Shown here one piece after another: positions 6,703 through 6,798 of a DNA stretch of 64,000 bases (position 1 is its first letter; every line of letters begins with the position of its first letter). Under the pieces are notes generated by a model, which searched no databases, was not told the DNA's origin, and was given only the letters and a program-made list of their open reading frames with translations. The position numbers and the translations under genes are program-made. This DNA comes from a candidate division WOR-3 bacterium (GTDB taxonomy: Bacteria; Hydrothermota; UBA3073; JACQXS01; JAGMCI01): the NCBI GenBank assembly GCA_023129325.1, contig JAGMCI010000021.1, positions 3,712-67,711 of the forward strand. The letters are read 5' to 3'.

Positions 6703-6798
6703 AACAGTGATTGGAAGAGTCCCGCACATAGATTATGTACGGGACAAGAGATAACTTTTCTCTTTCAATCCGTTAGCTAATGGACTTTAAATCCCTGT
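6703..6798. repeat. Long hairpin element (AACAGKGATTGRAAGAG...CCCTGT family) carrying two GC cores
   Basis: Shares arms with 22703-22790 and 55129-55160. Cores are CCCGCACATAGATTATGTACGGG (6721-6743) and TCCGTTAGCTAATGGA (6768-6783). Confidence 0.75.

What the first reader, a model, noticed from the sequence alone, without database searches (positions are those of the whole stretch)
6703..6798. A ~90-nt hairpin element whose GC core is exchangeable or absent among three copies
Three copies share the arm AACAG(G/T)GATTG(G/A)AAGAG and the continuation AAGAGATAA.
- Copy 22703-22790 carries TCCGTCAGCTGACGGATT between them.
- Copy 6703-6798 carries TCCCGCACATAGATTATGTACGGGAC at the same position, plus a second degenerate TCCGTTAGCTAATGGA core.
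- Copy 55129-55160 has only AATAT there.

Different palindrome families therefore occupy the same site of a larger repeat. This implies either modular assembly or repeated independent insertion into the same structural position.
Basis: seen in the sequence. Interest (0 to 1): 0.7.

Follow-up and report, generated by a model that had tools for sequence, protein, structure and literature searches.

The report
Tiny palindromes nested in hairpin repeat
An AT-rich hairpin repeat of about 75-95 bases, scattered between genes in uncultured WOR-3 bacteria, has been invaded in this genome by tiny GC-rich palindromes that also sit in frame inside ordinary genes, making it a new example of a known kind of repeat DNA rather than a new kind of system.

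Summary
The window holds exactly three copies of the AACAGKGATTGRAAGAG element (6703, 22703, 55129), all intergenic. A scan of species-representative genomes found 89 genuine copies in 18 WOR-3/Stahlbacteria-type MAGs.

Each arm is AACAGGGA plus two AAGAGA boxes at 10-nt spacing. Two arms form a three-step hairpin around an A-rich loop. About 60% of copies are single arms, as at 55129.

The "core" is not part of the element. 75 of 89 copies have only a 5-6-nt linker there and 14 carry an 18-26-nt filler. An orthologous locus is empty in two genomes and filled in two others. Genomes with many host copies but no palindromes have only coreless copies.

The same palindrome families occur elsewhere in the window: 26 GC-rich hairpins against about 4 expected. 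Many lie in frame in housekeeping genes (EtfA, PCMT, DUF2851), exactly at lineage-specific insertions. A second AT-rich repeat family shows the same empty/filled pattern.

Best reading: lineage-specific REP-like mini-palindromes secondarily inserted into unpaired positions of an older dispersed hairpin repeat. The host's own function and the inserting enzyme remain unknown. There is no Rfam match, no covariation, no terminator signature and no orientation bias. I rate it a new variant of a known kind.

The parts
6703..6798 (+). Host hairpin repeat, copy 1. It is full length with both arms, has a very short 7-nt apical loop, and carries two inserted palindromes.
   Evidence: RNA fold -31.9 kcal/mol, z -4.55. 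DNA fold z -4.4.
6720..6745 (.). Inserted palindrome TCCCGCACATAGATTATGTACGGGAC (CCGCAC..GTGCGG family), in linker L2 between the two AAGAG boxes of the 5' arm.
   Evidence: (I19). It folds as its own side stem.
6769..6784 (.). Degenerate palindrome TCCGTTAGCTAATGGA (CCGTCAGC family), in the 3' arm after CTCTTTCAA (L3 / second box).
22703..22790 (+). Host hairpin repeat, copy 2. It is full length and lies between convergent genes 20952-22643(+) and 22990-23961(-).
   Evidence: RNA fold -29.5 (+ strand) and -33.5 (- strand) kcal/mol, z -5.5 and -7.0.
22720..22735 (.). Inserted perfect palindrome TCCGTCAGCTGACGGA in linker L2.
   Evidence: The identical junction occurs in L034, L049, L054, L064 and L078.
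55129..55157 (+). Host repeat, copy 3. It is the 5' arm only, with the default 5-nt linker AATAT. It lies at the edge of a methyltransferase-containing two-gene insertion that is absent from the syntenic relative L105.
6637..6665 (-). Promoter-like site TTGACT-17-TATAAT (11/12). It starts 37 nt from the 5' end of copy 1, reads away from it and drives the 77-aa gene 6383-6616.
6937..6952 (.). Free-standing copy of the CCGTCAGC palindrome (TCCGTCAGCTAACGGA), intergenic, downstream of argS.
43482..43497 (.). CCGTCAGC-family palindrome (TTCGTTAGCTAACGGA) overlapping the stop of the DeoC-family gene. It is the symmetric C>T / G>A variant.
57269..57284 (.). Perfect TCCGTCAGCTGACGGA inside the 3' end of the DUF2851 gene. 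It encodes IRQLTD within a C-terminal extension that is absent from the ortholog.
23497..23521 (.). CCGCAC-family palindrome in frame in the GT2 glycosyltransferase gene (encodes NPAHKLCAG).
24858..24883 (.). CCGCAC-family palindrome in frame in the GT4/GT1 glycosyltransferase gene (encodes DPAHKFMCGA).
54760..54785 (.). CCGCAC-type palindrome in the PCMT gene, at a 5-aa insertion relative to solved PCMT structures.
60614..60628 (.). TCCGCCTGAGGCGGA in the EtfA-ferredoxin gene (encodes SASGG), at an 8-aa insertion found in none of 10 homologues.
61154..61172 (.). GCAAGGCTGAGAGCCTTGC in the EtfA gene (encodes RQGSQPC), at an 11-aa insertion found in none of 10 homologues.
48584..48719 (+). Second AT-rich host repeat family (CCACAGA...TCTGTGGCT), a filled copy with TCCGCCTTAGGCGGA at its centre (48651-48665).
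   Evidence: (D8, D15, I1).
38665..38768 (-). Same second host family, a filled copy in reverse orientation (palindrome at 38712-38726).
34994..35116 (+). Same second host family, an empty copy with no palindrome at the centre.
6878..6907 (+). 30-nt dispersed unit TGGTTCACTACGACCTTCACCACGGAGTGG next to copy 1. Its reverse-complement twin at 58469-58498 lies in a 16-aa insertion of the DUF2851 gene.
   Evidence: (I6).

Best explanation
Two layers of repeat DNA are superimposed.

Layer 1 (host) is an old, dispersed, strictly intergenic AT-rich repeat family of WOR-3-type bacteria.
- Its unit is a 29-nt arm, AACAGGGA-TTGR-AAGAGA-AYWT-AAGAGAT, with three AGRGA boxes 10 nt apart.
- Two inverted arms around a 7-40-nt A-rich loop give a three-step hairpin with unpaired linkers.
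- Single arms are at least as common as full hairpins.
- It behaves as a DNA-level repeat of the BIME/MITE kind. It has many copies per genome, forms tandem arrays and mosaics with other short repeats, breaks assemblies, and shows no fixed relation to gene orientation.

Layer 2 (the "cores") consists of several lineage-specific families of 15-26-nt, nearly perfect GC-rich palindromes, which are REP-like mini-elements.
- They have spread through this genome and its close relatives by copying into new sites.
- They survive where an extra stem-loop is tolerated: the unpaired linkers and apical loops of AT-rich hairpin repeats, other intergenic DNA, and, when the net length keeps the frame, surface loops of proteins.

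What is shown: the family, its anatomy, the empty and filled sites, the independence of the two layers, and the in-frame insertions.

What is inferred: that spread is by copy-and-insert of the palindrome, with the enzyme or mechanism unknown; that hairpin loops are preferred or merely permissive targets; and that the host repeat is maintained through recognition of its boxes by some conserved protein.
For: Host family
- There are 89 genuine copies in 18 species-level MAGs, all intergenic.
- E44_bin80 has 21 loci, many at contig ends.
- Tandem arrays occur, for example three units in L038.
- In E44_bin80 the element is embedded in a roughly 170-nt mosaic repeat.
- The hairpin is far more stable than shuffles on both strands (z -4.5 to -7).
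- It shows zero compensatory changes in 22 pairs across 20 distinct copies.
- There is no orientation bias: 19 co-directional in one sense against 22 in the other.

Cores are secondary
- 75 of 89 copies have a 5-6-nt linker.
- An orthologous locus is empty in L015 and L002 and filled in L034 and L064.
- Palindrome families are lineage-specific. They are absent from E44_bin80, co228_479 and E29_bin43 despite many host copies there.
- Other genomes carry other cores at the same linker: CCATACGGATCCGTAGGG in L043/L100 and CCTGCC..GGCAGG in L068. They also carry cores in L3, L4 and the loop.

Palindromes are dispersed elements
- The window has 26 GC-rich perfect hairpins against 4.0 +/- 2.4 in shuffles.
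- They fall into a few families with unrelated flanks.
- They coincide with every lineage-specific insertion examined: 2 in EtfA, 2 in PCMT and 5 in DUF2851.
- A second host repeat family shows the same empty/filled pattern.
Against: - No transposase or other enzyme was identified. No IS200/RAYT-like ORF was found in about 800 kb of related loci, but the query was written from memory and whole genomes were not scanned.
- No target-site duplication is visible for either layer.
- The filled site is not a clean insertion, because AAC is replaced by 16 nt.
- Seven copies share one identical junction. This fits amplification or gene conversion of a filled arm as well as site-specific insertion.
- The arm is 97% conserved at an orthologous locus, against 63.5% for flanking non-coding DNA and 91% for the adjacent coding sequence. 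It is nearly invariant across 18 species. That is more conservation than expected for purely selfish DNA and points to a host function that I could not define.
- No close relative of the window genome was available, so the window's own three sites have no direct empty-site comparison.
Confidence: 0.65

Rival explanations
1. The 29-nt arm is a functional cis-element: a phased array of three AGRGA boxes bound by a conserved WOR-3 protein, such as a transcription or nucleoid factor, or an RNA-binding protein when transcribed. The copies are kept by selection rather than by mobility, and the palindromes are neutral hitch-hikers in the spacers between boxes.
For: - The boxes lie at exact 10-nt spacing, and the box positions are invariant while the linkers vary.
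- Single arms always keep all three boxes.
- Conservation at an orthologous locus is 97%, against 63.5% for neighbouring non-coding DNA.
- The sequence is nearly identical across 18 species.
- Copies lie in 5'UTRs about 40 nt after a -10 box, or 13-38 nt upstream of divergent -35 boxes.
- Palindromes sit only in linkers and never break a box. This is partly ascertainment.
- ACAGGGAU matches the ACARGGAU core of the CsrA SELEX consensus. That comparison is from memory and was not tested.
Against: - Spacing to promoters is not fixed (9-38 nt), and 47 of 89 copies have no strong promoter nearby.
- There is no orientation bias to genes.
- Copy numbers, tandem arrays and contig-breaking behaviour are typical of dispersed repeats.
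- No candidate protein was found, and no CsrA ORF occurs in about 800 kb.
Confidence: 0.3
2. The element works as RNA. It would be a conserved terminator, insulator or mRNA-stabilising hairpin, as proposed for REP/BIME, and the GC-rich cores would be selected because they strengthen a weak AU-rich hairpin.
For: - The predicted structure is strong on both strands, and the core adds about 9-14 kcal/mol (-20.4 to -29.5, and -17.9 to -31.9).
- On the minus strand the hairpin is followed by a T-run that merges with the T-rich upstream part of the next promoter.
- Several copies are certainly transcribed as 5'UTR.
Against: - There are no compensatory changes.
- About 60% of copies are single arms that cannot form the hairpin.
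- Convergent-gene spacers, where terminators are needed, are the rarest context (5 of 64).
- 18 copies lie between divergent genes.
- No terminator-like call falls on any window copy.
- There is no Rfam match.
- The GC stem is not adjacent to the T-run.
- Cores are absent from 84% of copies and from whole genomes.
Confidence: 0.12
3. Subfamily amplification ("modular assembly"): one arm acquired a palindrome once. The filled arm then spread as a unit by transposition, duplication or gene conversion among host copies. The shared site would then reflect common descent rather than repeated targeting.
For: - The junction GAG|TCCGTCAGCTGACGGA|TTAAGAG is identical in seven copies from three related genomes.
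- Each lineage has one dominant core at L2: CCGTCAGC in the window group, and CCATACGGATCCGTAGGG at two loci of the Cruoil/UBA3073 population.
- Conversion of an existing empty copy would also produce the empty/filled ortholog pattern.
Against: - At least five unrelated fillers occupy L2 in different copies, with different exact junctions.
- The window itself has two different families at L2.
- The same palindromes occur in unrelated sequence contexts, including genes.
- This rival explains identical junctions but not the origin of each filled arm.
Confidence: 0.3
4. Chance resemblance of low-complexity purine-rich sequence.
For: 13-14 of the 97 pattern hits are chance matches inside coding regions of unrelated taxa. 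This shows that AAGAG-rich strings do recur by chance.
Against: - 0 of 100 shuffles reach the observed count in the window.
- The 89 other copies share both arms, the loop character and an intergenic location.
Confidence: 0.01

Closest known systems
REP / REPIN elements and BIMEs (repetitive extragenic palindromes; Bertels & Rainey 2011, PMC3116915; Di Nocera et al. 2013, PMC3733652)
   Same: - The cores are short, GC-rich, hairpin-forming, multi-family, lineage-specific dispersed repeats.
- Di Nocera et al. report REPs inside coding regions, and REPs regularly nested within longer palindromic sequences (A. variabilis GTAG-15, H. neapolitanus CGTC-1). That is the same architecture as here.
- They also report that CGTC REPs have no dedicated transposase.
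- The host, with its mosaic of neighbouring short repeats, resembles a BIME.
   Different: - The cores are 15-26 nt, nearly perfect palindromes without an unpaired GTAG/CGTC tag or CCA tail.
- No REPIN doublets were seen and no RAYT was found.
- A large share are intragenic.
- Unlike the cases in PMC3733652, the target palindrome is abundant without the insert: 84% of copies, and all copies in some genomes.
MITEs with structured bodies (Correia/NEMIS, ERIC, RUP, BOX; review PMC10969869)
   Same: The host is 75-100 nt with inverted ends, is intergenic, has tens of copies per genome, folds into a long hairpin, and is sometimes co-transcribed with neighbouring genes.
   Different: - No target-site duplication is evident.
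- No parent IS with matching ends was found.
- Single-arm copies predominate.
- The arms consist of 10-nt-phased boxes, and the linkers of the two arms are swapped rather than mirror-symmetric.
- The sequence is conserved across a phylum-level group rather than a species or genus.
Rickettsia palindromic elements (RPE; from my own knowledge of Ogata et al. 2000, as discussed in PMC3733652)
   Same: Palindromic repeats are inserted in frame into housekeeping protein genes and add short peptide segments. They are also found in non-coding DNA.
   Different: RPEs are about 100-150 nt, whereas these are 15-26 nt and add 4-16 residues. The host lineage is different, being free-living and uncultured.
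Small dispersed repeats (SDR) of Nostoc (Elhai et al. 2008, Genome Res 18:1484; cited in PMC3116915; content recalled from memory because the paper is not held)
   Same: They are very small (21-27 nt) dispersed repeats inferred to be mobile from orthologous comparisons, and they are found nested in other repeats.
   Different: They come from a different phylum with different sequences. I could not re-read the paper to compare insertion signatures.
GC clusters of yeast mitochondrial DNA (my own knowledge; reviewed in PMC8811140, which I did not read in detail)
   Same: Short GC-rich palindromes spread in a very AT-rich genome, in intergenic DNA and occasionally in frame in genes, by an unknown mechanism.
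   Different: They occur in an organelle genome, the elements are about 30-60 nt, and there is no sequence relationship.

Membership tests
REP / REPIN | Short (20-40 bp) imperfect palindrome with an unpaired GTAG or CGTC tag at one end, often with a short tail. | tested here: not met
   The cores are 15-26 nt and nearly perfect palindromes. In TCCGTCAGCTGACGGA the CGTC is base-paired inside the stem. The other families (TCCGCC.., CCGCAC.., GCAAGGC..) have neither tag. The definition is taken from PMC3733652.
REP / REPIN | Predominantly extragenic, high copy number. | tested here: inconclusive
   The count is 26 in 64 kb, against 4 expected. However, 17 of the 26 lie inside ORFs.
REP / REPIN | Associated RAYT (IS200/IS605-type Y1 transposase) gene flanked by the repeats. 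| tested here: inconclusive
   There is no IS200-like ORF in about 800 kb of window plus loci. The query was written from memory and complete genomes could not be scanned.
REP / REPIN | Inverted doublets (REPINs) as the replicative unit. | tested here: not met
   The palindromes occur singly with unrelated flanks.
MITE | Terminal inverted repeats, small size and many copies. | tested here: met
   The ends AACAGGGA...TCCCTGTT pair in 95-96% of cells. Copies are 57-103 nt without inserts. There are 89 copies in 18 genomes.
MITE | Target-site duplication flanking each copy. | tested here: not met
   The flanks are A-rich on both sides but are not direct duplicates. A TTAA-like extension is inconsistent between copies (inspection).
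MITE | A cognate autonomous IS with the same ends. | tested here: not met
   No long-range arm pair encloses a transposase in the loci. The only gene bracketed by arms is a GxxExxY nuclease-family gene in one orthologous group, and other GxxExxY genes are not bracketed.
Intrinsic (Rho-independent) terminator | A G+C-rich stem-loop immediately followed by a U-run, downstream of a gene in the right orientation. | tested here: not met
   No terminator-like call falls on any of the three copies. There is no orientation preference, and convergent spacers are rarest.
Structured RNA family (Rfam) | A match to a curated covariance model, or covariation supporting a conserved structure. | tested here: not met
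   There is no match at gathering score, and only noise at E<=10. There are 0 compensatory pairs. There is only a weak signal for an alternative crossing register (14-17 of 500 shuffles).
CRISPR array | Identical repeats separated by unique spacers. | tested here: not met
   The tandem arrays (L038, L040) repeat the whole unit, including the inter-arm sequence.
Rickettsia-type palindromic elements (RPE) | In-frame insertion of a palindromic repeat into protein-coding genes, seen as an extra segment relative to orthologs. | tested here: met
   This was seen in EtfA, PCMT and DUF2851. Size and sequence differ, so this is functional resemblance and not family membership.

The most novel reading that the evidence does not exclude
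The most novel reading has two parts.

First, the 29-nt arm (AACAGGGA plus two AAGAGA boxes at one helical turn) would be the recognition array of a conserved but unidentified WOR-3 protein. That would make it a phylum-wide cis-acting code used in 5'UTRs and next to promoters, not junk.

Second, the 15-26-nt perfect palindromes would be among the smallest self-propagating DNA units known. They would spread without a dedicated transposase, for example by fold-back or template-switch synthesis. That would explain why variants change symmetrically on both half-sites. They would preferentially enter single-stranded loops of hairpins, and they would be tolerated in frame in essential proteins.
Probability: 0.15. 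Interest if true: 0.75.

Novelty: new variant of a known kind. Interest (0 to 1): 0.5.

Why it matters
- It gives a clean natural example of layered repeat evolution in an uncultured phylum. Tiny GC-rich palindromes colonise the unpaired positions of an older AT-rich hairpin repeat and also the reading frames of housekeeping genes.
- Empty and filled states are available for comparison in the data.
- The palindromes explain lineage-specific micro-insertions in conserved proteins of this lineage and relatives.
- They also break assemblies. Logan contigs end at the element, which matters for MAG quality.
- The host arm is conserved to an unusual degree across species. That makes it a tractable handle for finding a still unknown DNA- or RNA-binding factor of this candidate phylum.
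- The system could help answer how REP-like elements without a dedicated transposase move.

Tried and rejected
- **Rfam:** gathering thresholds on the whole window and an E<=10 scan on copy 2 gave nothing relevant.
- **CRISPR-like origin:** the arm contains ATTGAAAG, like some crRNA handles (from memory). However, the arrays have no unique spacers, so I dropped this.
- **Transposon with the arms as ends:** a GxxExxY nuclease-family gene is bracketed by an arm and a full hairpin in L015/L034/L002/L064. Other GxxExxY genes (L021, L039) are not bracketed, so I rejected it as a general partner.
- **IS200/RAYT and CsrA:** searches among ORFs of all loci found nothing. These are weak negatives, because the queries were from memory and the genomes are partial.
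- **Phage or viral origin:** no match in phage records or IMG/VR.
- **Terminator model:** no calls fall on the copies and the context statistics do not fit.
- **Fixed activator-site model:** spacing to the -35 box varies from 9 to 38 nt.
- **Metagenome scan for more filled copies:** it returned only 5 loci, 2 of them informative.
- **Strain-level empty sites for the window's own copies:** none were found.
  - No close relative is present; the next EtfA homologue is 65% identical.
  - The alternative Logan contig starts inside copy 1.
  - BLAST of the window against all loci found no orthologous spacer.
- **Covariation:** none for the nested fold, and only a weak, unreliable signal for a crossing register.
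Full report
**Observation**

- AACAGKGATTGRAAGAG has three exact matches. At up to 3 mismatches there are 5 matches against 0.94 expected, and none of 100 shuffles reaches 5.
- A profile search with both arms finds no further copy in the window or in 7 kb beyond it.
- All three copies are intergenic.

Copy 2 (22703-22790) is a full hairpin with TCCGTCAGCTGACGGA at 22720-22735. Copy 1 (6703-6798) is a full hairpin with a 7-nt apical loop. It carries TCCCGCACATAGATTATGTACGGGAC at 6720-6745 and a degenerate TCCGTTAGCTAATGGA at 6769-6784, the latter in the 3' arm. 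Copy 3 (55129-55157) is only the 5' arm, with AATAT.

**Source and family**

The window comes from a candidate division WOR-3 MAG (GCA_030643605.1, contig DAOWLA010000070.1).

A scan of one genome per species for AACAGNGATTGNAAGAG-N(0-30)-AAGAGAT returned 97 stretches.
- 13-14 are chance hits inside genes of unrelated taxa.
- The rest, with the window and one informative metagenome locus, make 89 genuine copies in 18 MAGs. These are labelled WOR-3, Stahlbacteria, TA06 or "Cloacimonadota", with a few labelled otherwise or left unclassified. There are up to 21 loci per genome.
- 75 of the 89 have a 5-6-nt linker between the two AAGAG boxes, most often AATAT or AACTT.
- Only 14 have an 18-26-nt filler.

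The coreless form seen at 55129 is therefore the default state.

**Anatomy**

An alignment of 20 distinct full copies (A2) gives the following layout:
- 5' arm: AACAGGGA-TTGR-AAGAGA-AYWT-AAGAGAT
- loop: A-rich, 7-40 nt
- 3' arm: ATCTCTT-YCAA-TCTCTT-AARWT-TCCCTGTT

The AGRGA boxes start at positions 4, 14 and 24, about one helical turn apart. Some copies have extra GATTGAAAGA units (L029, L011).

The nested three-step hairpin pairs in 93.9% of cells but has no compensatory change at all.

The linkers of the two arms are swapped rather than mirror-symmetric. An alternative crossing pairing (ATTGRAAGAG with CTCTTYCAAT, and AAYWTAAGAGAT with ATCTCTTAWRTT) is therefore also possible. Its support is weak, with 14-17 of 500 shuffles reaching the observed values.

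As RNA or as single-stranded DNA the element folds much better than shuffles on both strands (z -3 to -7). The GC palindromes fold as separate side stems and add roughly 9-14 kcal/mol (RNA parameters).

There is no Rfam match and no match in phage or viral collections.

**Context**

With a crude ORF caller, only one copy falls inside a called ORF, so the family is essentially intergenic. About 40% are full hairpins and the rest are single arms. Orientation relative to the flanking genes is unbiased:

| Flanking gene arrangement | Copies |
|---|---|
| Co-directional, one sense | 19 |
| Co-directional, other sense | 22 |
| Divergent | 18 |
| Convergent | 5 |

Some arms lie 9-38 nt upstream of a divergent promoter of the local consensus TTTTTTCTTGACA-N17-TATAAT. 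Copy 1 lies 37 nt from such a promoter. Others lie in a 5'UTR about 40 nt after a -10 box. Half have no strong promoter nearby. No window copy is called terminator-like.

Tandem arrays exist (L038 with three units; a related 58-nt array in L040). In E44_bin80 the hairpin is part of a roughly 170-nt mosaic with other short periodic repeats, and many contigs end at it. A Logan contig of the window's own population starts inside copy 1.

This is the behaviour of a dispersed DNA repeat of the BIME/MITE kind. It is not the behaviour of an orientation-dependent RNA element.

One fact argues for constraint or homogenisation. At an orthologous locus in four species the arm is 97% identical. The flanking non-coding DNA is 63.5% identical and the adjacent coding sequence 91%.

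**The cores are secondary insertions**

1. At that orthologous 5'UTR locus, L015 and the more divergent L002 have AACTT and AGATT. The sister genomes L034 and L064 have TCCGTCAGCTGACGGATT between unchanged boxes.
2. Coreless copies are the large majority.
3. The palindrome families are lineage-specific.
   - The window has TCCGCC-N-GGCGGA (8 copies), CCGCAC..GTGCGG, GCAAGGC..GCCTTGC and CCGTCAGCTGACGG.
   - CSMAG_2245 and RS_17_14 share the last of these plus CCTGCC..GGCAGG.
   - MAG055 and Stahlbacteria have CCTGCC, CCTGTC and GTCAGG types.
   - E44_bin80, co228_479 and E29_bin43 have many host copies and essentially no palindromes.
4. Other genomes carry other fillers at the same linker: CCATACGGATCCGTAGGG at two loci of the Cruoil/UBA3073 population, CCTGCCTGCCGTCAGGCAGG in L068, and a non-palindromic 20-mer in L056/L065. 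Palindromes also sit in linkers L3 and L4 and in the apical loop.

Junctions differ between families. One site, ATTG^AAAGAG, recurs in four independent copies (L068, L056, L100, L086).

My search pattern allowed a gap only at L2. The excess of L2 fillers is therefore partly ascertainment.

**The palindromes are genome-wide elements**

The window has 26 perfect GC-rich hairpins (stem at least 7, loop at most 8), against 4.0 +/- 2.4 in dinucleotide shuffles, with a maximum of 9. They fall into a few families whose flanks are unrelated.

Seventeen lie inside ORFs that are ordinary genes: GT2, GT4/GT1, PCMT, DUF2851 and EtfA-ferredoxin.

Every lineage-specific insertion I could examine coincides with one of them:
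- **EtfA:** an 11-aa insert (RQGSQPC, from GCAAGGCTGAGAGCCTTGC) and an 8-aa insert (SASGG, from TCCGCCTGAGGCGGA). Both are absent from 10 homologues and from CarE 6fah.
- **PCMT:** 8-aa and 5-aa inserts relative to solved structures.
- **DUF2851:** five inserts relative to the syntenic ortholog L105.
  - One is a C-terminal extension encoded by TCCGTCAGCTGACGGA, the very core of copy 2.
  - Another is a 16-aa insert containing a 30-nt unit whose reverse-complement twin lies next to copy 1, at 6878-6907.

The relative's own unique EtfA insert is also GC-rich and quasi-palindromic.

A second AT-rich host repeat in the window (CCACAGA...TCTGTGGCT, about 125 nt) is empty at 34994-35116. It carries TCCGCCTTAGGCGGA at its centre at 48584-48719 and 38665-38768.

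Variants of a family change symmetrically, for example GTCAGCTGAC to GTTAGCTAAC at 43482. Palindromy itself is therefore maintained or regenerated.

**Mechanism**

Shown:
- two independent repeat layers;
- insertion polarity (empty is ancestral);
- location of inserts in unpaired linkers and loops and in protein loops;
- lineage specificity.

Inferred:
- The palindromes spread by copy-and-insert.
- They persist where an extra stem-loop is harmless.
- Hairpin loops may also be preferred targets, as they are for IS elements that insert into REPs (PMC1525189, seen only as a title and abstract).

The enzyme is unknown. No IS200/RAYT-like ORF was seen in about 800 kb (a weak negative). This parallels the CGTC-type REPs, which lack a dedicated transposase (PMC3733652).

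The identical junction in seven copies may reflect amplification or conversion of a filled arm.

The host arm's extreme conservation and phased boxes suggest recognition by a conserved protein. I could not identify one.

**Comparison with known systems**

The architecture of small GC-rich palindromes nested in longer palindromes, and of REPs inside genes, has precedent (PMC3733652). So does in-frame insertion of palindromic repeats (RPEs).

The cores fail the REP definition on three counts: no unpaired GTAG/CGTC tag, no doublets, and no RAYT found. The host fails the MITE definition on target-site duplication and on a parent IS.

Neither is a terminator, a CRISPR array or an Rfam family.

I file the whole as a new variant of a known kind: REP/BIME-like layered repeats in WOR-3.

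**Verdict**

Interest is moderate at 0.5. The layered-repeat pattern has precedent, but the empty and filled states here are unusually clear.

Two open points are worth pursuing. One is the phylum-wide conserved, box-phased arm. The other is the mechanism by which 15-26-nt palindromes spread.

Noticed in passing
window 34994-35116, 38665-38768, 48584-48719; also 3537-3572, 33417-33453, 41156-41198, 44483-44526, 54917-54967: Many spacers are filled with CACAGA/TCTGTG-type short periodic repeats (consensus such as TAACCACAGAG..., AATCTGTGAAATCTGTGGCT). Three form a roughly 125-nt imperfect palindrome family. Similar CACAGAG or CGCAGAT strings precede host arms in other genomes.
   Followed up: partly
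window 8636-8668, 33476-33508, 63808-63840: There is a shared promoter consensus with a T-run directly upstream of the -35 box (TTTTTTCTTGACA-N17-TAnAAT). It lies in front of gene 8678, the tmRNA (33521-33897) and tRNA-Thr (63859-63931).
   Followed up: partly
window 47929-48040: A perfect 56-nt tandem duplication spans the stop codon of ORF 45651-47987. It may be a recent duplication or an assembly artefact.
   Followed up: no
window 50630-50720: A 14-nt tandem repeat (GAAGTGGGAAGTAG-like units, merging into GAAGTCAGAAGTCA) lies inside ORF 49554-51173. A complementary stretch lies at 48666-48694.
   Followed up: no
window 55261-57127 versus L105 5666-7227: An N6/N4 DNA methyltransferase gene (56201-57127) and an unannotated 291-aa ORF (55261-56136) lie between DUF2851 and PCMT. 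In the syntenic relative L105 those two genes are only 18 nt apart. This is probably an inserted restriction-modification module, and host copy 3 lies at its edge.
   Followed up: partly
L040 4540-4773; also L037 321-440, L034 4123, L080 7684: A related repeat, AACAGGGACTTGAACGAGACTTATAAGAGACT..., forms a perfect 58-nt tandem array directly downstream of a strong promoter-like site. The array runs to the contig end. It could be a repeat-rich non-coding RNA, since its ACAGGGA motif resembles CsrA-binding sites (comparison from memory).
   Followed up: no
L034 3458-4008, L015 4322-4861, L002 39-569, L064: A GxxExxY (PD-(D/E)XK nuclease family) gene is bracketed by a host arm in its 5'UTR and a full host hairpin after its stop. 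The arrangement is conserved in four species.
   Followed up: partly
window 23613-23649 and 24201-24237: A 37-nt segment, 97% identical in both places, includes ATCCGCCTCTGGCGGAT. It lies in two different glycosyltransferase genes and encodes (G)TSARGGLPV in both. It is longer than the bare palindrome, so this copy may have moved with flanking sequence or by gene conversion.
   Followed up: partly
window 35164-38586: A large ORF (1140 aa) has internal repeats of about 93 nt (HEAT/PBS-like, ...ALGKIGD...).
   Followed up: no
window 32150-32183: AAAGGGGGGAAAGGAACATTCCTTTCCCCCCTTT, a 13-bp perfect stem, lies between convergent genes 29579-32134(+) and 32200-33261(-). It looks like an ordinary bidirectional terminator and is unrelated to the palindrome families.
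   Followed up: no
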